The notes below the pieces were generated by a model that had not been told where the DNA came from, ran no database searches, and was given only the letters and a program-made list of their open reading frames with translations. From an uncultured Clostridia bacterium (lineage in GTDB: Bacteria; Bacillota; Clostridia; Oscillospirales; JAAYOS01): a stretch of DNA of 62,806 bases. The DNA is taken from contig CANPWY010000001.1 of NCBI GenBank assembly GCA_947585215.1, positions 1 through 62,806 on the forward strand, written 5' to 3'. A program made the translations under genes and the position numbers. Shown piece after piece: positions 13,223-36,700 of the stretch; the stretch's first letter is position 1; each line of letters opens with the position of its first letter.

Positions 13223-13281
13223 CAGGAGGAACGTTTTCGCTCCGCAATGAATCTCTTCTGTATGATTCATAATATGGGACC

Positions 13282-13913: not shown

Positions 13914-13923
13914 AACATACAAG

Positions 13924-13962: not shown

Positions 13963-14243
13963 GAAAAAATTTTGATTTTCGTGTCCGAATTGCCCGGATT
14001 TTTAAGCTAATAGGTGTAGGGACATTTGCGGGCTCCGGCGTTTGCAGAGACCGAGTGTGCCGTTGCCGCGCGGTTGCCGTAAGATATAGTCAGCCTGCGT
14101 CTCACACCGTAACAAGCAGGGAACTTGTACGGCAAGTTCCCATCTGAACAGACGGCATTTCCGCCGTCTGTTTCTCTTTAGGGGCTTTGCCCCTAATACC
14201 CTGCAAAGAACCCCTAATGCCCCATTATGAAAGGAAGGATTTT

Positions 14244-16779: not shown

Positions 16780-16791
16780 AGAAGCTCGCCT

Positions 16792-16959
16792 ATGGAGAAG
16801 GATGTGAAAGTCGATGCAAACGAGGTGCAACTCTCAAAAGAACTGCTGACCTCGTTTGCAAAATTTCTTGCCTCGGAAATCTGTAAGTTTTACGGATCTG
16901 AGGAGGGCAAAGCCTATTATGAGGCATGGCTCAAGCGGCATTCCGAAGACGCCGCCTGA
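16792..16959 (+). CDS. small hypothetical protein (55 aa)
   Basis: The ORF MEKDVKVDANEVQLSKELLTSFAKFLASEICKFYGSEEGKAYYEAWLKRHSEDAA fills the gap between parB-like and the recombinase. It is below the ORF-track length cut-off. No function recognised. Confidence 0.35.
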   Translation: MEKDVKVDANEVQLSKELLTSFAKFLASEICKFYGSEEGKAYYEAWLKRHSEDAA

Positions 16960-17053
16960 AGCCGGCGGGAAGCAATCAGCTCGTTCGACTGCTTCCCATA
17001 CATATGACTTTTACAAAAGAACGAACTACAATCAAGAGAACGGAGGAATGAAC

Positions 17054-21411: not shown

Positions 21412-21566
21412 TCCTTTTTGAAAAATGGTCTTATAGCCCCTCGATCGTCTCCCACAGGAGCCTCTACGGGTCGCTTCCCCCGGATATCCGGCCGTCGAAA
21501 ACCGATGTGGGTTCGACTCCCGTCAGCTAAAAGGGTAGTACAGCGCGGGAAATTTGTCAATAGCCC

Positions 21567-21642
21567 TGTCCCGAAACGCAAAAAACACGACCTGAAATGC
21601 GCCAACATGCATTTCGGGTCGTGTTTTTGACGATTCGGGACA
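21567..21642. repeat. long imperfect palindrome (34-nt arms, 8-nt loop)
   Basis: The left arm at 21567-21600 pairs with the right arm at 21609-21642 in 30/34 positions. A second copy of the right arm alone lies at 29408-29441 (29/34 identical). Confidence 0.8.
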
Positions 21643-21648
21643 AAGTGG

Positions 21649-21677
21649 TTGACAAGCGGGCAGATTTTTCCGATACT
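21649..21677 (+). promoter_or_regulatory. candidate promoter of MT-STAS module 1/2 operon
   Basis: TTGACA (21649-21654), 17 nt, GATACT (21672-21677). The same arrangement is duplicated at 29448-29476. Confidence 0.5.
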
Positions 21678-21817
21678 GTAAGCGATAAATTCCGCCACTG
21701 CGATAGGATAATCGTGTTCGACGGAGGTCGCATCGCGGAGGACGGTACCTGCGACGAGCTTATCGCCCAAACGGCGTCTTCGCCGAGCTTGCGGCACGGC
21801 AAAGGCCGGATACGTAA
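21666..21817 (+). pseudogene. decayed C-terminal remnant of an ABC exporter ATPase
   Basis: ..SDKFRHCDRIIVFDGGRIAEDGTCDELIAQ matches the ..ADRIIVLxxGRIxExGTHxELxA tail of ABC exporters. After CAA(A) at about 21768-21771, the typical ending NGVFAELAARQRPDT* continues only in the +1 frame (1-nt deletion). No Walker motifs lie upstream. Confidence 0.55.
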
Positions 21818-21860
21818 GCCCCTTTGGGGCCTTTATATAGAGAGAAAGGGAGAAAACAAG

Positions 21861-23168
21861 ATGGATGAACTGAGAGAACGTACAAACCCCGTGTTCAACA
21901 CGGCCAAGGCCACGCTTTTGCATCTGACGGAGGCGGGGAACGCCGACGCCGCCATGATGGCGGAGACGCTGGGCCTTGATCTCAAGGGCATGACCCACAG
22001 CGACGAGGGAAAAACGGCAATGGGCCAGTCCAACGTTGCCATCGTGGAGCTGCGCTACCGCTCCATGAACGCTTTCATTGAGGCCACGGGCGCAAAGACT
22101 ATCGTGGACCTGCCCTGCGGCTACACGCCCAGAGCCCTGGAGGACTTTATCGCGGATAAGCGCTACATCGCCTGCGACCTCCCGGCGGTGGCGGAGGAGA
22201 TGGGTCCGCTGATAGAAGGGATATTGGCCCGGCGCGGCCAAAAGCGGGACGTTGCCTACCACGGCGTGGACGCCACAAACTACGCTTCCCTACGCTTTGC
22301 GCTGGAGGGGGCCCAGGGCTCGCTGTGCGTCACCACCGAGGGACTTTTGATGTACCTCACCGAGCCGGAGCTTGTCGCCCTCATGGACAACGTTTGGCGC
22401 GTTTTGAAAGAATTCGGCGGGGTGTGGATCACCCAGGACCCGGAGGTCGGGCGGGTGTACATAGCGATGACCGTGGCGGCCCAGAGCCGCGACCCTGCCG
22501 CCGCCAAAGCGGCTATGGAGGCCCTGGCCGACGGCGCCGACATGGGTACGGTCCTCAAGGCCATGGCGGGGGACCAGGGCCAGTCCACCCTGAACGCCTC
22601 CAAAAACACCTTTGGCGGCGCGGCGGACGTGAAATTCGGCAATGTCCTGAGCTACCGGCCGGAGCAGGCCGAGGCGGCAATGAAGGAGTCTCTCCGCGCC
22701 CATGGCCTTAAGGTGGAGCTGACGCCCCTGGCGGCGCGGATGCCGGAGCTTCAAAGCCTGTCCCCTGAGCGGACGGAGATCGCGCGTCACGCCCTGGAGC
22801 GGGTGAACCTCTGGACCGTCACCCCGGACGGGGCCGGGAGCGGGTCCGGCCCGGAGGCGGACGGCGCTTTCGGCGTGGAGACCGCCATAAACGGCCCGGA
22901 GCTCACCGTCACCCTCCAGGGCAGGGTGGACTCCCTCACCGCGCCGGAGTTCCTGGCGGCCTTTGAAAAGGCGGCGGAGGGGAGGACCCTGACGGCCGCG
23001 AAGGTGGATATGTCGAAGCTTGCGTACATCTCCTCCGCCGGTCTGCGGGTGCTGCTCATTATGACAAAGCGCGTTGGCGGGGGCCATGTGACTGTCACCG
23101 GGGCAAACGAGATCGTCCGCTCCATCTTTGAGCAGACGGGCTACGACGACATCCTGACAATTCAATGA
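21861..23168 (+). CDS. SAM-methyltransferase-like (LCMT/TcmP-like) - STAS domain fusion protein, paralogue 1
   Basis: 435 aa starting MDELRERTNPVFN.. (RBS GGGAG). Motifs IVDLPCGYTPRAL and TTEGLLMYLTEPE. C-terminal SpoIIAA-like STAS: ..VDMSKLAYISSAGLRVLLIMTKR..GANEIVRSIFEQTGYDDILTIQ. Confidence 0.8.
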   Translation: MDELRERTNPVFNTAKATLLHLTEAGNADAAMMAETLGLDLKGMTHSDEGKTAMGQSNVAIVELRYRSMNAFIEATGAKTIVDLPCGYTPRALEDFIADKRYIACDLPAVAEEMGPLIEGILARRGQKRDVAYHGVDATNYASLRFALEGAQGSLCVTTEGLLMYLTEPELVALMDNVWRVLKEFGGVWITQDPEVGRVYIAMTVAAQSRDPAAAKAAMEALADGADMGTVLKAMAGDQGQSTLNASKNTFGGAADVKFGNVLSYRPEQAEAAMKESLRAHGLKVELTPLAARMPELQSLSPERTEIARHALERVNLWTVTPDGAGSGSGPEADGAFGVETAINGPELTVTLQGRVDSLTAPEFLAAFEKAAEGRTLTAAKVDMSKLAYISSAGLRVLLIMTKRVGGGHVTVTGANEIVRSIFEQTGYDDILTIQ

Positions 23169-23192: not shown

Positions 23193-23420
23193 ATGGCGGA
23201 ACTGAACGAGAAAGACCTGGAGAAGGTCTCAGGCGGCACCTTGGAGATACCTGAGGAGACGATCAAAAAGTTGCACGTCCCGGTGGTCGATGCCAATCAC
23301 ACCTGCCCGCTCTTCGGCCGGGAGGACGGCACCGAAATGACCTGCTCCCACTGCATCCACGCCGTAGTCAGCGGGGGCGTCTACTACTGCGTGGACTACA
23401 TGTACAGCAAATATCATTAA
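23193..23420 (+). CDS. double-glycine-leader Cys-rich precursor-like peptide P1
   Basis: 75 aa with RBS AAGGAG. Leader is MAELNEKDLEKVSGG. The core has C-x13-CxxC-x12-C. Confidence 0.65.
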   Translation: MAELNEKDLEKVSGGTLEIPEETIKKLHVPVVDANHTCPLFGREDGTEMTCSHCIHAVVSGGVYYCVDYMYSKYH

Positions 23421-23491: not shown

Positions 23492-24808
23492 ATGGACAAC
23501 ATTCAAAAATTGCGAGAGGAAACCAACCCCGTATTCAACACGGCCAAGGCCACGCTGCTGCAGCTGGCTGAGGCGGGCCACGCGGACGCCGCCCTGATGG
23601 CGGCGAGGCTGGGTCTTGATCTGGCGGGCGTGACCTACAGCGACGAGGGGAAAAAGGCTATGAGCCGGTCCAACGTCGCCACTCTGGAGCTGCGATATCG
23701 CTCCATGAACGCCTTTATCGAGGCTACGGGCGCGAAGACCGTTGTGGACCTGCCCTGCGGCTATACGCCCCGGGCTTTGGAGGGCTTTATCGCCTATAAG
23801 CGCTACATCGCCTGCGACCTGCCGGCGGTAACGGACGAGATGGGCCCGCTGGTGGAGAAAATATTGGCCGAGCGGGGTCAGAAGCGAAAAGTAGCCTACC
23901 GCGGCGTGGACGCCACAAATTACGCCTCTCTCCGGGCGGCGCTGGAAGGGGTCGAAGGGCCGCTGTGCATCACTACCGAGGGACTTTTGATGTACCTCAC
24001 CGAGCCGGAGCTTGCCGCCCTGATGGACAATATCCGCCGCATTCTGGATGAGTTCGGCGGCGTGTGGATCACTCAGGACCCGGAGGTCAGCCGCGTGTAC
24101 ATATCTATGACCATGGTGGTCATGAACGACTCCGCCAAGGCAAAGGCGGCTGTGGAGGCTCTGGGCAGAAGCGCCAACATGAGCGAGGTTCTCAAAGCCA
24201 TGGCGGGCGACAAGGCTCAATCCGCCCTGAACGCCACCAAAAGCACCTTCAGCGGCGAGGCGGACGTAACATTTGGAAACGTGATGCTGGTCCGGGGCAC
24301 GCCGGAGCAGTTCGCCGCGGCGAAGGAGGCTCTCCGCGCCCACGGCCTGAAGGCAGAGCTGTCGCCTGTGGCGGAGCGGATGCCGAGGCTCGGGAGTCTG
24401 GACCCCGAGCGGACGGAGCTTGCCCGGCAGGCTATGGAGCACATCAACCTCTGGACCATCACCCCGGACGGGGCCGGGAGCGATCCCGCCGTGCGGACGG
24501 GCGGCGAATTCGGCGTGGAGACCGCCGTGAACGGCTCGGAGCTCACCGTCACCCTGCGCGGCCGGGTGGACTCGCTCACCGCGCCGGAGTTCCTCGCCGC
24601 CTTTGAAAAGGTCGCCGGGGAGAACACGCTCACCGCCGCGACGGTGGATATGAGCGGTCTTGAGTACATCTCCTCCGCCGGGCTCCGCGTCCTGCTCATT
24701 ATGACAAAGCGCCTCGGCGCGGGCAGCGTGACCGTCACCGGCGCAAACGAGCTCGTCCGCTCCATCTTCGAGCAGACCGGCTATGACGACATACTGACAA
24801 TTCGGTGA
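23492..24808 (+). CDS. SAM-methyltransferase-like - STAS fusion protein, paralogue 2
   Basis: 438 aa, collinear with paralogue 1 (VVDLPCGYTPRAL, TTEGLLMYLTEPE, YISSAGLRVLLIMTKR). Confidence 0.8.
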   Translation: MDNIQKLREETNPVFNTAKATLLQLAEAGHADAALMAARLGLDLAGVTYSDEGKKAMSRSNVATLELRYRSMNAFIEATGAKTVVDLPCGYTPRALEGFIAYKRYIACDLPAVTDEMGPLVEKILAERGQKRKVAYRGVDATNYASLRAALEGVEGPLCITTEGLLMYLTEPELAALMDNIRRILDEFGGVWITQDPEVSRVYISMTMVVMNDSAKAKAAVEALGRSANMSEVLKAMAGDKAQSALNATKSTFSGEADVTFGNVMLVRGTPEQFAAAKEALRAHGLKAELSPVAERMPRLGSLDPERTELARQAMEHINLWTITPDGAGSDPAVRTGGEFGVETAVNGSELTVTLRGRVDSLTAPEFLAAFEKVAGENTLTAATVDMSGLEYISSAGLRVLLIMTKRLGAGSVTVTGANELVRSIFEQTGYDDILTIR

Positions 24809-24827: not shown

Positions 24828-25571
24828 ATGTCCGCTGTGAAAAAACATGCCATACGGCTGGCGGCGCTGGCGCTGGCGGTGTTCCCGGTTCTGGGTGCGT
24901 GCGGTAAGGCGGAGACAAAGAGCGTCTCCCCGGAGGACGCCTCGGGCTTCGTCTCGCTGGCGGAGGCGGTGCCGGACGTTATCTTGGAGATACGCTACTA
25001 CTCCACCTACAACTTCGTGGGCGACAGAATAGCGGGCTACGAGGAGCCGTGCGCCCTCCTGACCTGCGAGGCGGCGGAGGCGCTGAAGGGCGCGGCCGCC
25101 GACGCGATGGAACAGGGATACCGCCTGAAGGTCTACGACGCCTACCGCCCACAGACGGCGGTGGACAACTTCGTGGAGTGGGCGGAGGACACGGACGACA
25201 CCCGCATGAAGGCGTATTTTTACCCGGAGCTTGACAAGTCCGTCCTCTTTGAACAGGGCTACATCGCCGCCAAGTCCGGCCACAGCCGGGGGAGCACTTT
25301 GGACCTGACCCTCTTTGACATGGCCGCAGGCAAGGAGCTGGACATGGGCGGCACCTTCGACTACTTCGGGGAGCTCAGCCACCCCGACTATGTGGGGGAC
25401 CTGACGGCGGAACAAATCGAAAACCGCAATATTCTCCGGGACATCATGGTGACTAACGGCTTTAACCCCTTGGCCGAGGAGTGGTGGCACTTCACATTAG
25501 CCGACGAGCCCTACCCGGACACCTATTTCACTTTCCCGGTCTCGAGCGAGTCCGTGACAACCGACAAATAA
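24828..25571 (+). CDS. VanX/DdpX-type D-Ala-D-Ala dipeptidase (peptidase M15D) with lipoprotein signal
   Basis: Lipobox VLGAC. Motifs ..KSGHSRGSTLDLTLF.. and ..EEWWHFTL.. match VanX zinc/catalytic motifs. Confidence 0.85.
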   Translation: MSAVKKHAIRLAALALAVFPVLGACGKAETKSVSPEDASGFVSLAEAVPDVILEIRYYSTYNFVGDRIAGYEEPCALLTCEAAEALKGAAADAMEQGYRLKVYDAYRPQTAVDNFVEWAEDTDDTRMKAYFYPELDKSVLFEQGYIAAKSGHSRGSTLDLTLFDMAAGKELDMGGTFDYFGELSHPDYVGDLTAEQIENRNILRDIMVTNGFNPLAEEWWHFTLADEPYPDTYFTFPVSSESVTTDK

Positions 25572-25590: not shown

Positions 25591-25809
25591 ATGACTGACG
25601 AGAAGAAAACGGCGCCGGACGCCCTGAACGAAGAGGCTCTGGAGAAGGTCTCCGGCGGAATCAGAGCTTCAGATGTCCAATGTTTTATGCAGAATAACTG
25701 CAATTATTGCCGCCGCATTATTGACTGGACCTGTCCCTACGGCTCAATAGAGAAGACAGTTGAGAAATTGGGAAGGTACGGCAGTTGCCCCGAGAAGGAG
25801 ATGTTCTGA
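25591..25809 (+). CDS. double-glycine-leader Cys-rich precursor-like peptide P2
   Basis: 72 aa with RBS GAAGGAGGA. Leader is ..[11 protein letters not shown]. Core is C-x6-CNYC-x7-CPY..C. Confidence 0.65.
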
Positions 25810-25914
25810 GGCGAACGATAATAGGAAAATTTTAGGAGGTTGCCTCCGAATCAACGGCGCTGGCAGAAGAAAAACAGGGCTGACCGGAATCTCCCGATCC
25901 GCCTACCGTGACGG

Positions 25915-25953
25915 AAGAGGCCGTCCTTATAGATGGCCTCTTTTTACTTTTTT
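25915..25953 (+). terminator. Rho-independent terminator (25 nt upstream of the next start codon)
   Basis: AAGAGGCC / GGCCTCTT stem with a 12-nt loop, followed by TTTTTACTTTTTT. Confidence 0.75.
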
Positions 25954-25978
25954 GAAGAAAACACAAGGAGGAACGACA

Positions 25979-28900
25979 ATGAAGGGATATTCCAAAAAGG
26001 TGCGGCTGGGAGCGTTGGCGCTGGCGGTGCTGATGCTTCTATGCCTGCTCACGGCCTGCGGCAAGAAGGACGACGCGATTGAGACGCTTGCCGAGCTTGA
26101 CAAGGCCGGGCACACCGTGGGCGTGGCTATGGGCTCCTCCGGCGACAAGGCGGTGACCGAGAACTTCCACAACGTGGAGATCAGCCGCTACTCCGACAGC
26201 GCCACCGCGTATATGGCGGTACAGCAGGGGAAGCTGGACGCCTTCGCCTTTGACGCCACCATGCTCCGCTACGCCATCTCCGGCGGCCTCGAGGGGGTCA
26301 AGATACTGGATGAGACCATGGGGGACATCACGGACATCGCCATCGGCGTCTCCCGTAAGACCGACATCCCCGACCTTGTGGAGAAGATAAACGCCTTTCT
26401 CGCCTCCATCCGGGACGACGGGACGCTGGACGACATGAAGCTCCGGTGGATCGAGAAGGCCGACGAAACAATGCCCGACATCCCCCTGCCCGAGGACCCG
26501 GAGGTCACGCTGACGGTGGGGACGACCGGGTTTGTGATGCCCTTCAGCTACTACAAGGACAACAAGCTCTGGGGCTTCGACATCGAGATGGCCACCCGCC
26601 TTGCCGCCTATCTGGGGGTGGGGGTGGAGTTCAATCTCTACGACTTTGACGGCGTCATCGCCGCCGCAGAGACCGGCGTCATAGACTGCGTCATGACGAA
26701 CCTGAACGTCACGCCGGAGAGACAGGAAGTAATCGACTTCTCCGACCCCATCTACACCTCCGAGACCGCCTTTCTTGTCCGTTCCGGCGAGGCGGAGAGC
26801 GGGCAGGCCATCACGGAGCTTTCCCAGCTCGACGGCAAGCGCCTCGGCGTCGCCATCGGCTCCACCTTTGACGATATCATAGACAGCACCTTCCATGACA
26901 CCGAGAAGCTCTACTACGAAAACTACTCCGACATGGCGGAGGCGCTGAAGCAAAATAAGCTGGATGGCTTTTTAATAGACGAGCCGGTGGCCCGGGTGCT
27001 GTGCACGGAGGTCGGCGGCGTCACGTGGCTTCCCGATATGCTCCGGGAGGACAGCTACGCCATTGCCATGCCAAAGACGGACAAGGGCGCGCGGCTCCGG
27101 GATGAGTTCAACGAATTCCTCGCGAAAATCCGCGCCGACGGGACCCTCGAGGAGATCGAGGACGTCTGGTTCGGTACGGACGAGCAGGCGCAGACGGTGG
27201 AGGACCCGGCAGACCTGCCCGCTACGAACGGCACCATTGAATACGCCGGCGCGCCGGGCATGGAGCCGCTCAGTTACATGAAAAATAACCGTCTGATGGG
27301 CTACGACGTGGACCTCGTGACCCGCTTCTGCAAGGAATACGGCTACGGTTTACATATCCAGATCGTGGAATTTTCCACCATGCTGGCGGGAATGGAGGCC
27401 GGAAAGTACGACATCGGCGCCGGGGGCATCACCGTCTCCGACGAGCGGGCGGAGAAGATGAACTTCACCGAACCCAACTACACCGGCGGCGTAGTGGTGG
27501 CGGTGGCCGGCGGCGAGGAGACCGAGGACGGCAGCTTCTTTGAGCGCCTCGCCATCAGCTTTGAAAAGACCTTCATCCGGGAAAACCGGTGGGAGATGAT
27601 CCTCTCCGGCCTCGGTGTCACGGCTGTTATCTCCCTCTTCTCCGCCGTCTTCGGCACGATCCTAGGCTTCGGGATGTGCATGGCCCGCCGGAGCCGCTTC
27701 CGCGTTCTCTCCGGCGCCGTGGCGTGCCTTGTGAGGGTAATTCAGGGCGTGCCGCTGCTCGTGCTGCTGATGGTACTCTTTTACATCGTCTTCGCCGGGG
27801 TGAACATCAGCGGCGTGATGGTGGCCATCGTGGCTTTCTCCATCAACTTCGCGGCCTATGTCTCGGAGATGATGCGCACGGGCATCGCCGCCGTGGACGA
27901 GGGTCAGCGGGAGGCCGCCGCGGCTCTTGGCTTCGACAGGGTGAAGACCTTCACGCGGATCATCGCGCCTCAGGCGGCGCGGCATGTTTTACCCGTCTAC
28001 CGGGGCGAATTCATCTCCCTCGTGAAGATGACCTCCGTCGTGGGCTATATCGCGGTGCAGGATCTGACGCGTGTGACGGACCTTATCCGCAGCGCCACCT
28101 TTGAGGCGTTCTTCCCGCTCATTGCCTCGGCGGTCATCTACTTCTTGTTGGCGTGGCTGCTCACCTCGGTGCTGAGCATCGCGGAAAAGCGGCTGGATCC
28201 CAAGCGCCGGCCCCGGAGGACCTTCGACGGGTTGGACGCCGCCGCTGTTGCCCCCGCCTCCGCCGGTTTCGCGGACACGGGTGCGGACACGGACGAGCCC
28301 CTTATCACCATCTCTCACCTTGAAAAGGTCTACCCCAACGTCACGCCCCTGAAGGACGTGAACACTCAGATACATAGGGGCGACGTAGTCACCATTATCG
28401 GCCCCTCCGGCACCGGCAAGAGCACGCTCCTGCGGTGCCTCAACAGGCTGGAGACGCCCACCGGCGGCAGTATCCTTGCCTTCGGCCGGGAGCTGACCAC
28501 GGCAAAGCCCAAGGAGCTCAGCGCGGTGCGCCGGAGGATGGGCATGGTGTTCCAGTCCTTCAACCTCTTCGGCCACCTGACGGTGATGGAGAACATCATT
28601 CTGGCCCCCATGCTCCTCAAAGGCGTGCCGGAAAAGGACGCGGTGGCGAATGCCATGCGGCTTCTGCGCATGGTCGGCATGGCGGAGAAGGCCGACCGCT
28701 ACCCCGACGAGCTCTCCGGCGGCCAGCGCCAGCGCGTGGCCATCGCCCGTACCCTTGCCATGGAGCCGGAGGTCGTCCTCTTTGACGAGCCCACCAGCGC
28801 CCTCGATCCCACAATGGTGGGCGAGGTGCTGAGCGTCATGAAGCAGCTCGCGGCGGAGGGGCTCACCATGCTCATCGTCACCCACGAGATGCAGTTCGCA

Positions 28901-29383
28901 CACGACGTGTCCACCCGCATCTTCTACATGGATCAGGGCGTCATCTTCGAGGAGGGCACCCCGGAGGAGATCTTCGACCACCCCAAAAAGGACCGGACCC
29001 GCGTCTTCGTCCGGCGGCTCAAGACCCTCTCCCTCTCGGCGCAGTCCCCGGATTACGACTTCATCGGACAGTCCGAGAGTCTCCGCCGGTTCGGCGAGAA
29101 GAACCTGCTCGGCCGCAAGCGTGTGTTGGGTATGCAGACCGTGTACGAGGAGATTTTGGCCCAGAGCATCGTCCCCAACCTGGGCGCCTCCTTCCCGGTG
29201 GACGTGGCGGTGGAATACTCCGAAAAGGAGGACGCCCTCACCATGCGCTTCATATGGAGCGGCGCGGACTTCGACCCCATGCAGGAGGGGGGCGAGCTGT
29301 CCGTCAAGCTGGTGCAGGCCGCCGTTCAGAGCTGTGAGCACACCTATACGGACGGCGAGAACCGACTCATCTTCACCCTGTGA
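25979..29383 (+). CDS. fully fused amino-acid ABC importer: lipoprotein-anchored family-3 SBP domains + HisM/GlnP-type permease + GlnQ-type ATPase + extra C-terminal domain
   Basis: Start at MKGYSKK.. (AAGGAGGA RBS) with lipobox LLTAC. SBP_bac_3-like repeats; a TMD with ..[13 protein letters not shown].. (EAA loop); an NBD with [26 protein letters not shown] and [12 protein letters not shown]. About 125 aa follow the NBD. It is one uninterrupted 1134-codon frame. Confidence 0.85.
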
Positions 29384-29447
29384 GAGCCGTCAAGAGGCGG
29401 AAAACATGCAATTCGAGTCGTGATTTTGTCGTTTCGGGACAAACCCA

Positions 29448-29476
29448 TTGACAACCGCTCCGAAGTTTCGGATACT
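29448..29476 (+). promoter_or_regulatory. candidate promoter of MT-STAS module 3 operon
   Basis: TTGACA (29448-29453), 17 nt, GATACT (29471-29476), inside a 73-nt segment homologous to 21605-21677. Confidence 0.5.
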
Positions 29477-29538: not shown

Positions 29539-30777
29539 ATGGACGAACTGAGAGCGAGGACCAACCCCTCATATAACTCGGCGAAATCGACCCTGGTATA
29601 TCTCATGGGAGCCGGGGACGAGAACGCGGCCATGATGGCGGGCGAGCTGCACATCGAGCCGGACGAGACGTTCGGGGAGGGGCAGAAGAGCGCCCTGAGT
29701 CTGGGCATGATGGCGCAGGTAGACGCCTTCCACGAAACTATGAACCGGCTTCTCGCCGCCGTGCCGGAGCAGACTGTCGTGGACCTTGGCTGCGGCTACA
29801 CTCCCCGGGCGCTGTGGGAGGGGCTTTCCGCCAAGCGCTTCATCGGCTGCGACCTGCCCATCGTCATCGATGATATGGCTCCGCTGATGAAAAAGCTGCT
29901 TGCGGGCAAAAACCGCCCCGCCCCCGCGGAGTACAAGGCGGCGGACTTCACAAACTACGACTCTCTGCGCGCCGCTCTGAACGGCGTGGAGGGGCCGGTG
30001 TGCCTCACGAGCGAGGGAACGCTGACCTACCTCACCCAGTCAGAGGTGCGGCAGCTCTGCGCCAACGTGCGCCGGGTGCTTACGGAGTTCGGCGGCCGCT
30101 GGCTCACTCCCGACCCGGAGGCTGGCAAGCGCACCATCGGAACGCTGAGAGCCGTGATGGGCGAGGAGGCCATCAAAAACATGATGAGCGCCTTCAACAC
30201 CCTGTCCACCCAGTCGGACGTGACGGTGGGGAACAACGATCTGGTGATGCGCTTCGGAGAGTCGGACAGCTTTGAGAAGGCGACGGCCCTTCTCTCCGAA
30301 AACGGCCTGAAGGCGAAGCCGCTCCCCATGGGCGAGTACATGCCCGAGCTGAAGGTCTTCTCCCGGCTGAACGAGCAGCAGCGCGAGTCGATGAAAAATC
30401 TGTACGCGGGCCTGACGGTCTGGGAGATCACCCCTGACCCGGACTGGAAGGAGCCCGTCCGGGAGACGGGCGGCGCGTTCGGCGTCGAGACCGCCGTGAA
30501 CGGCACGGAGCTCACCGTCACCCTGCGCGGCCGGGTGGATTCGCTCACCGCGCCGGAGTTCCTCGCCGCCTTTGAGAAGGTCGCCGGGGAGAACACGCTC
30601 ACCGCCGCGACGGTGGATATGAGCGGCCTTGAGTACATATCCTCCGCTGGACTCCGAGTCCTGCTCATCATGACGAAGCGCCTCGGCGCGGGAAACGTAG
30701 TCGTCACCGGCGCAAACGAGCTCGTCCGCTCCATCTTCGAGCAGACGGGCTATGAAGACATCCTGACGCTCCGCTGA
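29539..30777 (+). CDS. SAM-methyltransferase-like - STAS fusion protein, paralogue 3
   Basis: 412 aa with VVDLGCGYTPRAL and TSEGTLTYLTQSE. The STAS half is nearly identical to paralogue 2. Confidence 0.8.
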   Translation: MDELRARTNPSYNSAKSTLVYLMGAGDENAAMMAGELHIEPDETFGEGQKSALSLGMMAQVDAFHETMNRLLAAVPEQTVVDLGCGYTPRALWEGLSAKRFIGCDLPIVIDDMAPLMKKLLAGKNRPAPAEYKAADFTNYDSLRAALNGVEGPVCLTSEGTLTYLTQSEVRQLCANVRRVLTEFGGRWLTPDPEAGKRTIGTLRAVMGEEAIKNMMSAFNTLSTQSDVTVGNNDLVMRFGESDSFEKATALLSENGLKAKPLPMGEYMPELKVFSRLNEQQRESMKNLYAGLTVWEITPDPDWKEPVRETGGAFGVETAVNGTELTVTLRGRVDSLTAPEFLAAFEKVAGENTLTAATVDMSGLEYISSAGLRVLLIMTKRLGAGNVVVTGANELVRSIFEQTGYEDILTLR

Positions 30778-30806: not shown

Positions 30807-31016
30807 ATGAACGACGAAAAGAAGCTCGACGAGAAGACCTTGGAGGAAGTCACCGGCGGGGATCTGCTTAGTACCGGCGACCCGGATATACCCGCCGGAA
30901 GCTGCAGCGAATGCGCGTGTACCGCCGTCACCTGCCCTTATTCTAACAATTTGAGTATCCTGTTGAAGAAAAGGTCAGGCGAGGAAAAATGCCTCGCGTA
31001 CATCCCCAGAACCTGA
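30807..31016 (+). CDS. double-glycine-leader Cys-rich precursor-like peptide P3
   Basis: 69 aa. Leader MNDEKKLDEKTLEEVTGG; core ..GSCSECACTAVTCPY..C..; RBS AAGGGGGA. Confidence 0.7.
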   Translation: MNDEKKLDEKTLEEVTGGDLLSTGDPDIPAGSCSECACTAVTCPYSNNLSILLKKRSGEEKCLAYIPRT

Positions 31017-31032
31017 CAAGGGGGAACAAACA

Positions 31033-31257
31033 ATGAACGACGAAAAGAAGGCCTTGGACGACAAGACCTTGGAGGACGTCACCGGCGGGGGCGATTATCT
31101 CACAGACCTCAGGACCTTCGTAGACATTTTTATGCATCACAACTGCTTGCAGTGCGCCAGATTCGAGGGGGATAACTGCCCCTACGACGGCCCGATCGAG
31201 ATGTACAACACCTATAAAATCGGCGCCGCAATCTGCCGGGAAAAACAGCCTATATAA
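31033..31257 (+). CDS. double-glycine-leader Cys-rich precursor-like peptide P4
   Basis: 74 aa. Leader MNDEKKALDDKTLEDVTGG; core ..HHNCLQCARFEGDNCPY..C.. Confidence 0.7.
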   Translation: MNDEKKALDDKTLEDVTGGGDYLTDLRTFVDIFMHHNCLQCARFEGDNCPYDGPIEMYNTYKIGAAICREKQPI

Positions 31258-31281
31258 TATAAGGACAAGGAGGAAAAAACA

Positions 31282-31491
31282 ATGAACGACGAAAAGAAGC
31301 TGGACGAGAAGACGTTGGAAGAAGTCACCGGCGGGGAGCTGATGGGCAATGCCAGCCCGGATCTGCCGTCGAGAGGATGCAACGATTGCGCGTGCAGCGG
31401 CCCGGACTGCCCCTATAGAAGTAACATAGATATCCTGATGAAAAAAAGGTCAGGCGAGGAAAGATGCTACCAGTTTATTCCCAAATCATGA
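31282..31491 (+). CDS. double-glycine-leader Cys-rich precursor-like peptide P5
   Basis: 69 aa. Leader MNDEKKLDEKTLEEVTGG; core ..RGCNDCACSGPDCPY..C..; RBS AAGGAGGA. Confidence 0.7.
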   Translation: MNDEKKLDEKTLEEVTGGELMGNASPDLPSRGCNDCACSGPDCPYRSNIDILMKKRSGEERCYQFIPKS

Positions 31492-31508
31492 AAAAAGGAG
31501 GAACACCC

Positions 31509-31718
31509 TTGAATGACGAAAAGAAGCTCGACGAAAAGACGTTGGAAGAAGTCACCGGCGGCGAGCTGATGGGCAGCGTCACCCCGGAGATACCGACGGG
31601 CAGCTGCGCTTATTGCGTACATAACGGCCCGAACTGTCCACATATAGACAACAAGAACTTTATGCTGAATATGTTGTCGGGCAAGGGAACCTGCTATTCG
31701 TTCCACCCCATAGACTGA
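31509..31718 (+). CDS. double-glycine-leader Cys-rich precursor-like peptide P6 (TTG start)
   Basis: Aligns with P3/P5 only if it starts at TTG 31509 ((M)NDEKKLDEKTLEEVTGG), which has AAGGAGGA 6 nt upstream. Core is ..GSCAYCVHNGPNCPH..C.. The ORF-track ATG at 31464 would overlap P5. Confidence 0.6.
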   Translation: MNDEKKLDEKTLEEVTGGELMGSVTPEIPTGSCAYCVHNGPNCPHIDNKNFMLNMLSGKGTCYSFHPID

Positions 31719-31764: not shown

Positions 31765-31801
31765 GGGCGATTTCCGCGAACGCGGAAATCGCCCCTTTTT
31801 T
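31765..31801 (+). terminator. Rho-independent terminator closing the peptide operon
   Basis: GGGCGATTTCCGCG-AA-CGCGGAAATCGCCC is a perfect 14-bp stem followed by CTTTTTT. Confidence 0.85.
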
Positions 31802-31863
31802 ATATTCTAAGCAATGCGCACCGGCGCTCTTGTTGTTCCGACGATGTTCCTTTACATATAGGC

Positions 31864-33712: not shown

Positions 33713-36700
33713 TCACCTCCCGGCATTGTCTTGCTTTTCGTTTTTACGTCTGAATAGGAGCTGTGCGGCGACGCAGACCGCAAAGAGCGCCGCGAGGCCG
33801 ATAAGGGTCCACCAGCGGCTCGCCGGCGGCTCGCGCAGAGCGTCCAGCTCCGCCGTAAACTCCTCGTAAAGGGCGTCCATGTCGCTCTGAGGGTCGCCGT
33901 CCCTTCCCTCGGCGGGGAGACCGGCGGCCAAGTTCGTGTATGTATCGAGAAGCCCGTCCAAAGCCTCGCCGTCGTAACGGCCGGTCTCTTTTGCCTTAGC
34001 GATCGCGGCCTTCGCGCTGTTCTCGAAGCGCTGGAGGCGTTGCGCCTGCCGTGTCTCAAGCTCCACATCCTCATAGGCCGCCCGGAGGCTGTCAAAGCTC
34101 TCATCCGGGGCGCTCGCCTCAAATTCCACGGCTTTCAGCACGCCGATACAGCGGTCAAAGACCTCACGGACGAACTCGCCGTCATGCTCCCGCAGGAGCT
34201 TTTCCGCCTCGTCCAGAAGCCGGGTCTTTAACTCCTCGAAGGCCGCCCTTTCGGCGCTGTCCTCGCCGGATGTGTCCGGGGACTCCGGGCGGTCGGGTTC
34301 GTCCGAGCCGTCCGTGCCGGAGGAATCGGGCTGCGTGGGTTCTGTGGCGCCGGGTTCGGAGTCGTTTGACTCGGAATCAGTGGGTTCGGAATCAGCGGAT
34401 TCGGAATCGTTAGACTCGGAGTCGTTTGACTCGGAGTCGTTAGGTTCGGAGTCGGTGGGTTCGGGGTTGGTCGGCGTGGGCTCGGCAGACTCGGAGTCTG
34501 CGGGCGTCTGGGCGGAGTTTCTCAGAGCCTCCGCCTCGGCGCGGACGTCCCCAAGGAGACCGGCGACCTCCGCTATCGTTCCGCTGCTCTCTGCGATTTT
34601 TGCGGCCACGCTCTCCCGGACGTCGTCAATGGCCTTGATGACCCGGGCATTGTCGCCGGGCTGTTTCAGAGCTTCCAGCGCCGCATCTACGGCCTCGGCC
34701 AGAGCCGCGTTTGCCGCGGCGCAGTTTTGCGCCGCGCCGATGGCCTCCACAGCCTCGGCGACCCTCGGATCCTCCGGGTCCGTGACGCTCTCACCCGTTA
34801 TGGCGTTGTAGGCGGCGAGGTATTCCGTTTGGGCGGCGGCGATCTCAGTCTTGCGCTGAGCCTCCAAATCGGCTCTCAGCGTCTCTGTCAGCTCCGCCAA
34901 GGACGCGATCTTGCCCTCTCCGGCGGCAGCTGTTGCCTTACTCATGTTCTCTATGACTGTATCTACCAAGGCCTGAACCGCGTCGGAGTCCTCCGTCCGA
35001 TTCACAAGCCCCTCGGCCGCGGAGGTCAGAGCATCCCGGAGGGCGTCGTTCATGGCCGACGTGTCCTGCGCCTGTCCTATGGCCGCCAGAGCCTCCTTCG
35101 CGGGAGAGGCGGCGGGGTCGGGGACGGCGCCCGTGAGGTTTTCCGCACCGTCCAGATATTCTTTCTGAGCCTGTCCTTGGGCGGCCTTCAGGGCAAAGGC
35201 GGTCGCCGCCTCGGCCACTATATCGTCCAGCGTCTGCCGCGCGGCGGCAAGGCCGCGGGAGAGGGTCACGTTTCGGACATCCTCCAACGCCGATGCTTTC
35301 AGCGTCGCAAGCTCCTCCCGAGCCGCTTCGTACATCTCTGTGTTGCCATACTGCGCCGCCAGCGCCTCGATCTGCCTCTCGGCGGCGGCCTTGTAGCTGC
35401 CCAGAGCGGCGGCGTTGGCGGCGGCCTGCTCCGACGCCTGTTGTGCGTCTATTTTGTTCTTAGTCTCCCGAGCCACGGCGGAGAGGTCGGCGAGCGCCCC
35501 GACGGCGTCGGCGGCGTCGACGGCCTCCTGCACGGCGGCTTTGCCTTCCTCCACGAGCTTCTGCACGGCGGAGGAGCTGTTTTTCCAGGCCTCGTCAAGG
35601 AGCGCGTTCACCTTCTCCTGCAGAAGCGCGTTCATCGCCGCGGTATCAGCCGCTTCCGCCAGCGCGAAGGCCGTGTCCACGGCCTCCCGGGCGGCGGCGT
35701 CGGTACCGGTGGGCAGACCTGTATGAGCGTCCACGGGAAGCGCCTCGCCGGTGAGAGCCTCGCGGCTCTCCAGATAGTCTTGGAATGCCTCGCCGGCGTC
35801 CTTGGCGTGGGTCAACGCTCCGTCGAGGGCGCTCACCGCGTCGTCCATCTTATCTGTATCCCCCGCCGCGCCGGCGATGTCGTCATAGGTCTGCTCCAGC
35901 GCCTGCCCGGCCAAAGTTTTGGCGCGGGGCGTCAGGTCATTCGCGGCGACAAAATCGTTATACTTTTTCTGTGCGTTCTGCGCCGGCACGACGGCGTCAG
36001 TGAAGCTCGCCATGGCATCGTCCACGGCCTTCTTATCCGCCGCGCCCTGAACGGAGTTGGCGTAGGTCTCGCAGAAGTCCTCCAGACCCGGCGTTTCCGC
36101 CGCCTTGCTCCGTATCTCCGCCGCCGTCAGGCTCCGGTAGGCAGTGAGGGGATCCGGCAGGGGCACGCTCTCCCCGCTGGACTGGTGACTCGCCAGGGCG
36201 TCATCCACCAGAGCCTTCGCGCCCTCGGGAAGGTCGTTATAGGCGTCGACACCATCGCCGACCGTTTCCTTCGTGCCCATCGGTGCGGGGTTTTGCACCG
36301 CATCCTTCATCGCCGGAAGGTACTCGTCAAGCCACGTATCGGCGGCCAGTCTGTCCCGTGCCGCCTCCAGCTCCGCGAGGCGCTCCCGCTCCAGCTCCGT
36401 CACCTCATTGAGGGCGAGATCGGTCACGACGTCTGTGGTGCCGGTAAACGTACCCTCGAGCGTTGTATATTGCGCGAGAGCGTCGGCGGGGTCAGTGCCG
36501 GCTGCGGCTTTCCACGCAGCATATGCCGCCTCAAACGCCGATTTTTCCGCGTTCTGTGCCGCCGTCAGTGTCGCGAACACGCCGCCGGGGCAAGGAACCG
36601 CCGCGCTGGGTATGGTGTCCGACCCCGCCGGCGTGCGGGCGAGGACAGTGTACTGTGTTTTCTCCAAAAGGCCGGTAAAGGAGAGCCTGCCGTCAGTACC

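What the first reader, a model, noticed from the sequence alone, without database searches (positions are those of the whole stretch)
30807..31718. Array of four paralogous precursor genes with near-identical leaders and diversified cores carrying a metal-ligand-like CxxCx(C/H)xxxxCP motif
P3-P6 share the leader MNDEKK(L/A)D(E/D)KTLE(E/D)VTGG while their cores diverge. Fixed Cys positions are retained: P3 CSECACTAVTCPY, P5 CNDCACSGPDCPY, P6 CAYCVHNGPNCPH, P4 CLQCARFEGDNCPY, P2 (25591) [14 protein letters not shown]. Each also has one distal Cys 15-20 residues further on. The Cys-to-His swap at the third ligand position in P6 and the trailing CP resemble a compressed ferredoxin or zinc-knuckle ligand set. 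This suggests metal binding, or two defined disulfide/thioether bridges, rather than random Cys content. A conserved leader with a hypervariable core is the usual signature of diversifying secreted peptides. P6 needs a TTG start to match its siblings.
Basis: seen in the sequence. Interest (0 to 1): 0.65.

Follow-up and report, generated by a model that had tools for sequence, protein, structure and literature searches.

The report
Exported four-cysteine peptide gene array
Four tandem small genes in an uncultured rabbit-gut Oscillospiraceae genome encode secretion-leader peptides of an undescribed family with four invariant cysteines, so they belong to a known kind of system (a quorum-sensing-type bacteriocin-like locus) but have a new core.

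Summary
P3 to P6 (30807-31718, + strand) are four tandem ORFs, each with a ribosome-binding site. Their 18-19 residue leader ends in Gly-Gly and is under strong purifying selection (dN = 0, dS 0.37-0.82). Their cores diverge (dN/dS about 0.5-0.6).

The family is real and is not captured by Pfam or NCBIfam. It has 139 representative clusters. In 114 aligned members only the second Gly and four Cys are invariant (N-C-x2-C-x5-8-C-P-Y...C).

Syntenic loci show the rest of the system:
- a C39-peptidase exporter of the NHLP type;
- an AgrC-like kinase and a LytTR regulator;
- arrays of up to 17 such peptides, some with canonical zinc-ribbon cores.

The window keeps only a 3' remnant of the exporter.

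The P3-P6 operon starts with a methyltransferase-STAS fusion gene. It sits behind a conserved promoter with two direct repeats 21 bp apart, which is the LytTR architecture.

Best reading: these are exported, Cys4-stapled mini-proteins of a bacteriocin-like or pheromone regulon. I could not resolve whether the cysteines hold disulfides or a metal.

The parts
29412..29438 (+). Two direct repeats (TTCGAG / TTCGGG cores, full repeats about CAATTCGAGTCGTG and CGTTTCGGGACAAA), start to start 21 bp. Putative LytTR-type response-regulator binding site of the P3-P6 operon.
   Evidence: The same module occurs 20 times (13 distinct) in 1.46 Mb of related loci and 0 times in 20 shuffles. It is seen in front of GG-peptide arrays, methyltransferase-STAS operons, an AIM24 operon and a flavodoxin-like gene; three sites had no downstream gene assigned. 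The architecture matches the pln promoters (PMC2714321).
29448..29476 (+). Promoter-like TTGACA-17-GATACT, 10 nt downstream of the repeats.
   Evidence: Identical hexamers occur at 21649-21677.
29539..30777 (+). First gene of the operon: a 412-aa fusion of an LCM/TcmP-like class I SAM methyltransferase domain and a C-terminal SpoIIAA-like STAS domain.
   Evidence: Pfam LCM 1.2e-05 and STAS 1.2e-12. AF2 mean pLDDT 85. Foldseek hits to DUF574, ML2640c, PPM1 and LCMT1, and to SpoIIAA/RsbV at rmsd 1.1-1.2 A. The ISSAG serine motif is conserved.
30807..31016 (+). P3 precursor, 69 aa. Leader 1-18 (MNDEKKLDEKTLEEVTGG), core with 5 Cys.
31033..31257 (+). P4 precursor, 74 aa. Leader 1-19, core with 4 Cys. 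Representative of the commonest core type (helix-N-C-x2-C...C-P-Y...C).
   Evidence: AF2 core pLDDT 79-90 with helices 20-38, 42-46 and 54-61.
31282..31491 (+). P5 precursor, 69 aa, 5 Cys.
31509..31718 (+). P6 precursor, 69 aa, TTG start, 4 Cys plus His at the variable position.
   Evidence: The orthologue uses ATG at the same position.
31765..31804 (+). Intrinsic terminator (13-bp stem with 9 GC pairs, then a T tract) that ends the operon.
25591..25809 (+). P2 precursor (72 aa), same family. Followed by a terminator at 25913-25944.
23193..23420 (+). P1 precursor (75 aa). GG leader MAELNEKDLEKVSGG with a different 4-Cys core.
   Evidence: (P0016 orthologue).
21613..21677 (+). Second copy of the repeat-plus-promoter module, in front of the first methyltransferase-STAS operon. 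A third, divergent copy lies at 21570-21596 on the minus strand.
21861..23168 (+). Methyltransferase-STAS paralogue 1. The true start is at 21861; the longer ORF from 21597 runs through the promoter and an ABC remnant.
23492..24808 (+). Methyltransferase-STAS paralogue 2 (438 aa).
21690..21814 (+). Remnant of the C-terminus of the NHLP-type exporter subunit ABC2. It matches residues 684-725 of the 747-aa protein of L005. The rest of the exporter, AIM24, the regulators and the kinase are missing from the window.
24828..25571 (+). VanX-like M15 D-Ala-D-Ala dipeptidase with a lipoprotein signal, embedded in the locus.
   Evidence: Conserved in L005.
25976..29383 (+). Single-polypeptide amino-acid ABC importer (lipoprotein signal, two SBP_bac_3 domains, permease, ATPase), conserved inside the locus.

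Best explanation
P3-P6, together with P2 and P1, are precursors of exported peptides of the double-glycine type. They are the cargo genes of a quorum-sensing-type, bacteriocin-like or pheromone-like locus of an uncultured rabbit-gut Oscillospiraceae bacterium.

Proposed mechanism:
1. The operon (methyltransferase-STAS gene, then P3-P6) is transcribed from a promoter activated by a LytTR-family response regulator. The regulator would bind two direct repeats 21 bp apart, just upstream of the -35 box. The repeats are shown; the binding is inferred.
2. The disordered, acidic 18-19-residue leader, with hydrophobic residues at -4, -7 and -12 and Gly-Gly at -2/-1, is recognised by a C39-peptidase ABC exporter of the NHLP type. 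That exporter is present in syntenic loci and deleted here apart from a 3' remnant, so in this genome it must be supplied from elsewhere. The leader is cut after Gly-Gly during export. This step is inferred.
3. The released 51-55-residue core folds into a compact helical mini-domain. Four invariant cysteines (C-x2-C at the helix 1/helix 2 junction, C-P before helix 3, and one C near the C-terminus) converge as a structural staple. The staple is either two disulfides or one Cys4 metal site. I rate these about equally likely.
4. The core surface diversifies between paralogues, as in blp/pln bacteriocin arrays and in prochlorosin-type precursor arrays.

The target activity (antimicrobial, signalling or metal capture) is not established.
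For: Anatomy:
- Four tandem ORFs with ribosome-binding sites, one promoter and one terminator.
- The leader fits the GG type. There are sub-threshold hits to TIGR01847 and ComC for the window peptides. One sibling passes the ComC cut-off at 24.1 against 20.4 bits.
- The leader is under purifying selection (dN = 0, dS 0.37-0.82), against core dN/dS of 0.49-0.63.
- AF2 gives a disordered leader (pLDDT about 54) and a confident helical core (pLDDT 79-90).

Family:
- 139 representative clusters.
- Only the second Gly of the leader and four Cys are invariant in 114 sequences.
- 100 of 148 cores have exactly 4 Cys.

Synteny:
- L005 matches the window from 21822 onward. Upstream it carries STAS, a SpoIIE/HATPase_c_2 sensor, a HlyD-like protein, a C39 ABC1 (catalytic Cys present) and ABC2, which passes the TIGR03797 cut-off at 728.5 against 709.4 bits. 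AIM24 follows.
- L093/L094 carry 17 tandem GG peptides next to a HATPase_c_5 kinase and a LytTR regulator.

Promoter:
- The module occurs at 29412 and 21613. It recurs in front of peptide arrays in L012, L018, L091 and L093. It also occurs in front of methyltransferase-STAS genes in L002, L005 and, as a TTCAGG variant read by eye, in L010. There are 20 hits (13 distinct) against 0 in shuffles.
- The LytTR promoters of the pln regulon have the same layout of 9-bp repeats, a 12-bp spacer, then the -35 box (PMC2714321).

Modifying enzymes:
- No lanthipeptide synthetase, radical SAM or YcaO gene appears among the window ORFs scanned or in the precomputed Pfam annotation of the loci looked up that way.
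Against: - The window itself has no C39 exporter, kinase or LytTR gene, so export and regulation in this genome rest on synteny with other metagenome-assembled genomes.
- No immunity-type small membrane protein is visible in the P3-P6 operon or in the 17-gene array, which is unusual for true bacteriocins.
- The window peptides stay below the curated cut-offs of TIGR01847 and ComC.
- There is no expression or processing data.
- The chemical state of the four Cys is unknown. I had no model coordinates to measure S-S distances, and Foldseek found no PDB analogue.
Confidence: 0.65

Rival explanations
1. Metal-centred reading. The four invariant Cys form a tetrahedral Zn(II) site, or a site for another thiophilic metal. 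The peptides act, after export into the anoxic and reducing gut lumen, as metal-dependent mini-proteins or as ribosomal metal-capturing peptides. This is a variant of the best explanation that differs in the chemistry and possibly in the function.
For: - Peptides with the same leader, in the same arrays and loci, have textbook zinc-ribbon cores (CPKC...CSRC, CPCCG...CFYCG, CPSCG...CPKC, CPVCG...CPGCG).
- Their only core matches in Pfam are zinc-ribbon or zinc-finger families, all below threshold.
- 35 of 148 type-A cores carry a fifth, odd Cys. A reduced metal site tolerates this better than a two-disulfide fold does.
- No thiol-disulfide oxidoreductase is recognisable in the loci.
- The producers are gut Oscillospiraceae, which are strict anaerobes by general knowledge.
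Against: - P2-P6 themselves have one C-x2-C and two single Cys, not two knuckles. They have no zinc-ribbon HMM match and are predicted helical.
- No Cys-to-His or Cys-to-Asp exchange occurs at any of the four positions in 114 sequences.
- By general knowledge, ABC exporters of this type pass unfolded cargo, and known Cys-containing class II bacteriocins use disulfides.
Confidence: 0.3
2. RiPP reading. The peptides are substrates of a tailoring enzyme. One candidate is the co-transcribed LCM-like methyltransferase-STAS protein, which would methyl-esterify a carboxyl group. The other is a remote Cys-modifying enzyme (lanthipeptide synthetase or radical SAM) that makes thioethers from the conserved Cys.
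For: - In the window two of the three methyltransferase-STAS paralogues are immediately followed by a peptide gene (P1; P3-P6). P2 follows the second paralogue after the M15 gene, 782 nt downstream.
- The same adjacency occurs in L002, L005, L013, L014 and L033.
- The SAM-binding motifs are conserved.
- The nearest structures include the protein-carboxyl methyltransferases PPM1 and LCMT1.
- A conserved leader with hypervariable cores is the prochlorosin pattern, in which the synthetase is remote (general knowledge).
Against: - Only 19 of 97 methyltransferase-STAS genes with enough flank have a GG peptide just downstream, and these are few non-redundant cases.
- An 87%-identical copy stands alone between clpB and icd.
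- The family is widespread in Clostridia without such peptides.
- Large peptide arrays exist without an adjacent methyltransferase: L001/L009 behind a Sel1-repeat protein, and the L093 17-gene array.
- No Ser/Thr positions are conserved in the cores.
- No lanthipeptide, radical SAM or YcaO gene appears among the window ORFs scanned or in the annotated flanks.
- The STAS domain suggests a regulatory partner-switching role instead.
Confidence: 0.12
3. Intracellular reading. The ORFs encode small cytoplasmic Cys4 proteins, for example regulators that act with the STAS partner-switching proteins. The N-terminal segment is not a cleaved leader.
For: - The window lacks any exporter.
- The genes are co-transcribed with a cytoplasmic STAS fusion protein.
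- By general knowledge, zinc-ribbon siblings are typical of intracellular proteins.
Against: - The N-terminal segment has the spacing of a GG leader, is the most strongly conserved part and is predicted disordered.
- Syntenic loci encode a complete C39 exporter with its catalytic Cys.
- Arrays of 7-17 diversified paralogues are typical of secreted cargo, not of regulators.
Confidence: 0.06

Closest known systems
Double-glycine (GG) peptide loci of Gram-positive bacteria: the blp locus of Streptococcus pneumoniae and the pln locus of Lactobacillus plantarum (class II bacteriocins and their inducing peptides)
   Same: - A short leader ending in Gly-Gly, with several paralogous cargo genes in tandem.
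- A C39-peptidase ABC exporter in the syntenic locus.
- An AgrC/ComD-type kinase plus a LytTR regulator in the syntenic locus.
- Promoters with two direct repeats spaced 21 bp, directly upstream of -35.
   Different: - The cores are 51-55-residue helical mini-domains with four invariant Cys. They are not short amphipathic or GxxxG peptides, and there is no Pfam or NCBIfam match.
- No immunity genes are evident.
- The operons begin with a methyltransferase-STAS gene.
- A SpoIIE/HATPase_c_2 partner-switching module, AIM24, a dipeptidase and an amino-acid importer are embedded in the locus.
- The host is an anaerobic Oscillospiraceae bacterium.
NHLP/Nif11-leader precursor systems with the three-gene NHLM exporter (TIGR03794, TIGR03796, TIGR03797), including prochlorosin-type arrays
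   Same: - The exporter in the syntenic locus is of this type. ABC2 passes the equivalog cut-off, and ABC1 and the HlyD-like protein match partially.
- Many precursors share a near-identical leader ending in GG and have hypervariable, Cys-rich cores.
   Different: - The leader is 18-19 residues, not the 70-80-residue NHLP or Nif11 domain, and there is no hit to those leader models.
- No cyclodehydratase or lanthipeptide synthetase is nearby.
Disulfide-stapled GG-leader bacteriocins (glycocins such as sublancin and glycocin F; pediocin-like class IIa)
   Same: A GG leader, export by a peptidase-ABC transporter, and a helical core held by four Cys.
   Different: - Glycocins have two C-x6-C pairs on a helical hairpin and need a glycosyltransferase. 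Class IIa peptides have the YGNGV box.
- Here the pattern is C-x2-C-x5-8-C-P...C, and there is no glycosyltransferase and no YGNGV box.
Zinc ribbons, rubredoxin knuckles and the ferredoxin C-x2-C-x2-C-x3-C-P motif
   Same: - Four invariant Cys, including one C-x2-C and a C-P.
- Sibling peptides in related loci carry true CPxCG...CPxCG pairs.
   Different: - P2-P6 have only one knuckle-like pair.
- The spacing is not that of ferredoxin, and the extra Cys/His is not conserved.
- The predicted fold is helical, with no HMM match.

Membership tests
Double-glycine leader peptides (substrates of C39-peptidase ABC exporters) | N-terminal leader of about 15-30 residues ending in Gly-Gly, with hydrophobic residues at -4, -7 and -12 | tested here: met
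   In MNDEKKLDEKTLEEVTGG, V is at -4, L at -7 and L at -12. The second Gly is invariant in 114 homologues.
Double-glycine leader peptides (substrates of C39-peptidase ABC exporters) | Match to the curated leader models (TIGR01847 bacteriocin_sig, PF03047 ComC) above cut-off | tested here: inconclusive
   The window peptides score 13.0-13.2 bits against a cut-off of 15.7, and 12.9-15.0 against 20.4. One sibling passes ComC at 24.1 bits. 6 of 114 family members match ComC at E <= 0.01.
Double-glycine leader peptides (substrates of C39-peptidase ABC exporters) | A C39-peptidase ABC exporter encoded with the peptides | tested here: not met
   No C39 or exporter gene is in the window, only a remnant of the ABC2 C-terminus at 21690-21814. 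The feature is met in the syntenic locus L005.
Double-glycine leader peptides (substrates of C39-peptidase ABC exporters) | Leader cleaved after Gly-Gly and core exported | not testable with these tools
   Needs an in vitro C39 assay or proteomics.
Class II bacteriocins | Antimicrobial activity with a cognate immunity gene in the operon | tested here: not met
   There is no further ORF between P6 and the terminator, and no small membrane-protein gene in the operon. Activity is not testable here.
LytTR/HPK10 peptide-pheromone regulon (blp/pln/com type) | Promoters with two about 9-bp direct repeats separated by about 12 bp, directly upstream of -35 | tested here: met
   Present at 29412-29438 and 21613-21639, with TTGACA 10 nt downstream. 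The module is conserved in 13 distinct sites of related loci and absent from shuffles. Reference architecture: PMC2714321.
LytTR/HPK10 peptide-pheromone regulon (blp/pln/com type) | Adjacent AgrC/ComD-type histidine kinase and LytTR response regulator | tested here: not met
   Absent from the window. Present next to the 17-peptide array in L093/L094 and confirmed as LytTR-type by NCBIfam hits to LytR, BtsR and AgrA.
NHLP/Nif11 precursor systems | NHLP (TIGR03793) or Nif11 (TIGR03798) leader domain of about 70-80 residues | tested here: not met
   The leader is 18-19 residues and has no NCBIfam hit to those models.
NHLP/Nif11 precursor systems | Three-gene NHLM exporter (TIGR03794, TIGR03796, TIGR03797) | tested here: inconclusive
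   Only a remnant is in the window. In syntenic L005, ABC2 scores 728.5 bits against a cut-off of 709.4. ABC1 is split, at 553.8 against 853.3. The HlyD-like protein is a 158-aa partial match.
Zinc ribbon / rubredoxin-type Cys4 site | Two C-(P)-x-C(-G) knuckles on beta-hairpins | tested here: not met
   P2-P6 have one C-x2-C plus C-P plus a single C. They have no zinc-ribbon HMM hit and a helical AF2 model. The feature is met by sibling peptides of other loci.
Zinc ribbon / rubredoxin-type Cys4 site | Stoichiometric metal bound by the four Cys | not testable with these tools
   No model coordinates were returned, so there is no geometry check. Needs metal analysis.
Ferredoxin-type [4Fe-4S] motif | C-x2-C-x2-C-x3-C-P with all four Cys conserved | tested here: not met
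   The spacing in P3/P5 is C-x2-C-x-C-x4-C-P. The third Cys is present in only 4 of 127 homologues.
Glycocins | Two C-x6-C pairs forming nested disulfides, and a glycosyltransferase in the cluster | tested here: not met
   The Cys spacing differs. No glycosyltransferase appears in the window locus or in L005.
RiPP tailored by the adjacent methyltransferase | Consistent co-occurrence of enzyme and precursor across genomes | tested here: not met
   19 of 97 enzyme copies have a GG peptide directly downstream. Close homologues stand alone. Peptide arrays also occur without the enzyme.

The most novel reading that the evidence does not exclude
Anaerobic gut Oscillospiraceae export, under peptide-pheromone control, whole arrays of ribosomally made Cys4 mini-proteins. 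These comprise the new helical N-C-x2-C...C-P-Y...C fold and genuine zinc ribbons fitted with secretion leaders. They would function outside the cell as metal-binding modules, that is, secreted zinc- or iron-dependent effectors or ribosomal metallophores. Their production would be coupled to a phosphorylatable methyltransferase-STAS partner-switching output that belongs to the same regulon.
Probability: 0.18. Interest if true: 0.75.

Novelty: new variant of a known kind. Interest (0 to 1): 0.5.

Why it matters
The peptides belong to a well-known kind of system: GG-leader cargo of a peptidase-ABC exporter under LytTR control. Three features are new.

- The core is a family of at least 139 sequence clusters that no curated library describes. 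It has an unusually strict Cys4 signature.
- It shares its leader with secreted zinc-ribbon-like peptides. I know of no described exported zinc ribbons, though I did not search the literature exhaustively.
- It sits in a regulon that also contains an undescribed methyltransferase-STAS fusion widespread in Clostridia.

If the cores are antimicrobial, they are a new scaffold from an uncultured herbivore-gut lineage. If they bind metal outside the cell, they would be a new class of ribosomal metal-binding exoproducts.

The conserved promoter module also gives a simple handle for finding the whole regulon in metagenomes.

Tried and rejected
1. Pfam and NCBIfam scans of P2-P6 gave only sub-threshold leader hits and no core family. 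A scan of all 114 aligned members gave ComC for 6 and DUF5651 for 3, which is not a family assignment.

2. Foldseek of the P4 model against the PDB gave no match at E <= 10. A profile search of PDB sequences with A4 gave only noise (sirtuin-2 at E about 0.3) and a leader-only similarity to a Nif11 protein at E about 1.

3. The ferredoxin or five-ligand idea is rejected because the fifth position is not conserved.

4. The methyltransferase-STAS protein as a dedicated peptide-tailoring enzyme is weakened by the genome survey.

5. A search for the exporter, kinase, regulator, partner-switch sensor and Sel1 protein in the window by tblastn found nothing beyond the ABC remnant.

6. Rfam on the whole window gave only two tRNA hits. 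Permissive Rfam on 21380-21640 returned microRNA hairpin models, which merely reflect the palindrome made by the two divergent promoter modules.

7. A direct-repeat search for attachment sites around the mobile-element genes at 11-22 kb found nothing convincing.

8. The third word-indexed protein search, with the large alignment, added few members. The exhaustive HMMER search was the useful one.

9. Literature searches for GG-leader zinc-ribbon or four-cysteine peptides in Clostridia found no description of this family.

10. I could not measure Cys-Cys distances, because model coordinates are not exposed.
Full report
**Observation**

The region 30807-31718 holds four tandem + strand ORFs:
- P3 at 30807-31016
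- P4 at 31033-31257
- P5 at 31282-31491
- P6 at 31509-31718, with a TTG start

Each ORF is preceded by an AAGGAGG- or AAGGGGG-type ribosome-binding site at the same distance.

A six-frame scan for the leader motif found six such ORFs in the whole window. All lie between 23.2 and 31.7 kb. The sixth is a more distant one, P1 at 23193-23420.

The TTG start of P6 is supported in two ways. The database gene call for this ORF uses it (P0001). The orthologue in L095 has ATG at exactly that position, and the next gene in L095 uses GTG.

**Leader against core**

Among P3, P5 and P6, which align without gaps, the leader codons show 3-5 synonymous changes and no non-synonymous change (dN = 0, dS 0.37-0.82). 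The cores show dN 0.39-0.57 and dN/dS 0.49-0.63.

So selection on the protein maintains the identical leader. Recent duplication does not explain it. The cores are much less constrained, although they are not under demonstrable positive selection overall.

The leader MNDEKKLDEKTLEEVTGG has V, L and L at -4, -7 and -12 and Gly-Gly at -2/-1. That is the spacing of double-glycine leaders. The curated leader models are hit only below threshold (TIGR01847 at 13.2 against 15.7 bits; ComC at 13-15 against 20.4 bits). One sibling peptide from a related locus passes the ComC cut-off.

**The family**

A word-indexed search found 17 relatives. An exhaustive HMMER search of 1.84 billion representatives found 139 clusters at E <= 1e-3 and 38 at E <= 1e-10.

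In an alignment of 114 members, the only invariant columns are the second Gly of the leader and four Cys (C38, C41, C49 and C68 in P4 numbering).

The consensus core is an amphipathic stretch, then N-C-x2-C, a loop of mostly 6-7 residues, C-P-Y(-G), a helix, and a last Cys often followed by Pro. 100 of 148 cores have exactly four Cys and 35 have five.

It is Leu or Tyr in more distant members of the P3/P5/P6 subfamily.

The conserved unit is therefore a Cys4 set. The ferredoxin-like C-x2-C-x-C-x4-C-P appearance is specific to a few close paralogues.

Neither Pfam nor NCBIfam has a model for the core.

**Structure**

AlphaFold2 was run on P4 with the 114-sequence alignment. It gives:
- a disordered leader (pLDDT about 54);
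- a confident core (pLDDT 79-90);
- helices at 20-38, 42-46 and 54-61;
- a beta-bridge between residues 41 and 73.

The C-x2-C thus sits at the junction of helices 1 and 2. The C-P precedes helix 3. The last Cys lies in the C-terminal strand that packs back on the C-x2-C.

No PDB structure resembles the model, and no PDB sequence matches the profile.

**Genomic context in the window**

The operon has these parts:
- two direct repeats at 29412-29438;
- a TTGACA-17-GATACT promoter at 29448-29476;
- a 412-aa gene at 29539-30777;
- P3 to P6;
- a strong terminator at 31765-31794.

The 412-aa protein is a fusion of two domains. One is a class I SAM methyltransferase domain of the LCM/TcmP group. The other is a SpoIIAA-like STAS domain with the phosphorylatable-serine motif ISSAG conserved. 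Evidence:
- Pfam LCM 1.2e-05 and STAS 1.2e-12;
- a PDB profile match to SpoIIAA/RsbV;
- AF2 mean pLDDT 85;
- Foldseek hits to DUF574, ML2640c, Rv0731c, PPM1 and LCMT1, and to SpoIIAA at rmsd 1.1 A;
- conserved SAM-binding motifs in 28 homologues.

Two paralogues lie upstream, at 21861-23168 and 23492-24808. P1 directly follows the first. P2 follows the second after a VanX-like M15 lipoprotein dipeptidase (24828-25571). A single-polypeptide amino-acid ABC importer (25976-29383) separates the two operons.

No lanthipeptide synthetase, radical SAM enzyme, YcaO or glycosyltransferase was found among the window ORFs that I scanned.

**Related loci give the missing parts**

The closest relatives are metagenome-assembled genomes of uncultured Oscillospiraceae from rabbit gut.

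L005 is syntenic with the window from 21822 onward. Upstream of that point L005 carries:
- a 98-aa STAS protein;
- a dCache-HAMP-SpoIIE-HATPase_c_2 sensor;
- a HlyD-like 158-aa protein (TIGR03794, partial match);
- a C39-peptidase ABC subunit with the catalytic Cys (TIGR03796, split into two genes);
- a second ABC subunit that passes the TIGR03797 cut-off (728.5 against 709.4 bits);
- AIM24.

In the window only residues 684-725 of that second ABC subunit survive, at 21690-21814. No exporter, kinase or regulator is anywhere in the 62.8 kb.

L093/L094 extend the picture further to the left. There are 17 tandem GG-leader genes, followed by a HATPase_c_5 (AgrC/ComD-type) kinase and a LytTR response regulator. 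Next come the STAS and sensor genes that begin L005.

This is the gene set of a blp/pln-type bacteriocin or pheromone locus combined with an NHLP-type exporter.

**A shared promoter**

The two operon promoters of the window share about 85 bp. The shared part has two repeats, CA(A/T)TTCG(A/G)GTCGTG and CG(A/T)TTCG(G/A)GACA. They are 21 bp apart start to start, then 10 nt, then TTGACA-17-GATACT. A third copy points the other way at 21570-21596.

A pattern for the whole module finds 20 sites (13 distinct) in 1.46 Mb of fetched loci and none in 20 shuffles. Downstream genes were identified as follows:
- GG-peptide arrays in L012, L018, L091 and L093;
- methyltransferase-STAS genes in L002 and L005;
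- the AIM24-peptide operon in L091;
- a flavodoxin-like gene in L093;
- three further sites (L013, L014, L036) had no downstream gene assigned.

Read by eye, the stand-alone methyltransferase-STAS copy in L010 also has the module as a TTCAGG variant.

Two 9-bp repeats with a 12-bp spacer directly upstream of -35 is the documented architecture of LytTR-regulated bacteriocin promoters (PMC2714321). That the LytTR protein of L093 binds these repeats is an inference.

**The methyltransferase-STAS protein**

The fusion is widespread in Clostridia: 586 hits at E <= 1e-5 among the candidates scored, and 250 genome loci.

Only 19 of 97 copies with enough flank have a GG peptide just downstream. These are few non-redundant cases, and all are in this rabbit-gut lineage. 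An 87%-identical copy lies alone between clpB and icd. Large peptide arrays also occur without it, for example behind a 2804-aa protein made of 62 Sel1 repeats.

I therefore regard it as a co-regulated member of the regulon. It is probably an output or sensor of the STAS/SpoIIE/HATPase_c_2 partner-switching module, rather than a dedicated tailoring enzyme. O-methylation of the peptides is not excluded.

**Metal or disulfide**

For metal:
- The same leader is attached, in the same arrays, to cores with textbook zinc-ribbon pairs (CPKC...CSRC, CPCCG...CFYCG, CPSCG...CPKC, CPVCG...CPGCG).
- Their only Pfam similarities in the core are to zinc-ribbon or zinc-finger families, all below threshold.
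- A quarter of type-A cores have an odd fifth Cys.
- The producers are gut anaerobes.
- No thiol oxidoreductase is recognisable in the loci.

For disulfides:
- The peptides carry an export leader, and known Cys-containing GG-leader bacteriocins use disulfides.
- P2-P6 have only one knuckle-like pair, are predicted helical and match no metal-binding model.
- None of the four positions is ever His or Asp in the 114 aligned sequences.

I cannot decide between them with these tools, and I rate them about equal. Thioether or other modification is a minor third option.

**Verdict**

The specific five-ligand, ferredoxin-like reading does not.

The system is a new variant of a known kind. It is GG-leader cargo of a LytTR-controlled locus with an NHLP-type exporter. 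It differs in three respects:
- an undescribed Cys4 helical core family;
- zinc-ribbon siblings that carry secretion leaders;
- an unusual methyltransferase-STAS gene at the head of each operon.

In this particular genome the locus has lost its exporter and regulators. The break lies next to mobile-element genes.

Noticed in passing
window 21411-21860: Synteny with related loci (L005, L024) starts at about 21822. The stretch at 21690-21814 is a remnant of the exporter ABC2 C-terminus. Two back-to-back copies of the promoter module (21570-21596 minus strand, 21613-21639 plus strand) form a palindrome that Rfam scores as microRNA-like hairpins. The leftward module, which in L093 drives a flavodoxin-like gene, here faces a stretch containing a tRNA T-arm-like GGTTCGACTCCC (about 21508-21521) and then the SLH 5'-nucleotidase gene. 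This looks like a deletion or rearrangement scar.
   Followed up: partly
window 12080-18685: A mobile-element gene set lies just left of the truncated locus: a MobA/VirD2 relaxase (14432-15940), a ParB-like protein (15937-16779) and a large serine recombinase (16856-18685). No flanking direct repeats were found.
   Followed up: partly
window 618-2889: A low-GC island (0.34-0.37, against about 0.60 elsewhere) carries an AAA_15/AAA_21 ATPase (618-2072) and a 226-aa ORF with no family. It lies next to a partial tRNA hit at 2833-2889. It may be a horizontally acquired defence-type cassette.
   Followed up: no
window 22800-23168, 24450-24808, 30420-30777: The three methyltransferase-STAS paralogues are only 45-55% identical overall. 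Their last about 100 residues (the STAS domain) are far more alike than the rest, and nearly identical between paralogues 2 and 3. This suggests gene conversion or a shared partner, as with RsbR paralogues.
   Followed up: partly
window 25976-29383: A complete amino-acid ABC importer is encoded as one 1135-aa polypeptide (lipoprotein signal, two substrate-binding domains, permease, ATPase). It is conserved inside the peptide locus together with a lipoprotein VanX-like D-Ala-D-Ala dipeptidase (24828-25571). In L089 a C69 dipeptidase and separate SBP and permease genes take the same place. I have no explanation for a dipeptidase plus importer inside a peptide-export locus.
   Followed up: partly
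L005 11077-11271, L024 2557, L093 3997-4179 and 4427-4603: Short Cys-poor acidic GG-leader peptides (for example ...TKAKTSKDWIDDARDWVKQLYGENENKEEP) alternate with zinc-ribbon-type peptides in the arrays. They may be partner peptides or the inducing pheromones.
   Followed up: no
L036 2836-3500, L046 about 2915 (minus strand): A different GG-leader peptide type has Gly-rich C-x-C repeats (DGCFCFGGGGGE..., ACGCPLVGGGTGHG...) and 6-7 Cys, near methyltransferase-STAS genes.
   Followed up: no
L001 812-9226, L009 2-7948, L091 1-6845: Giant proteins lie next to peptide arrays. The L001 protein is 2804 aa with 62 Sel1 repeats and directly precedes the array, and the L009 protein (2648 aa) likewise precedes one. 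The L091 protein (3045 aa) is on the opposite strand, separated from the peptide genes by an integrase gene. Only the L001 protein was scanned against Pfam.
   Followed up: partly
L093 8453-9751: A 432-aa protein with no Pfam or NCBIfam match but with an HxxxDG-like motif (FHALTDGAG) lies between the LytTR regulator and the STAS gene. It may be a condensation- or acyltransferase-like enzyme.
   Followed up: no
window 33713-39481 (minus strand): A 1922-aa ORF with long Ala/Glu-rich helical stretches, a run of SESNDSE-type acidic repeats and a C-terminal membrane anchor. It was not scanned against any family library. A 1505-aa SLH/pectate-lyase-like protein lies at 42105-46622.
   Followed up: no
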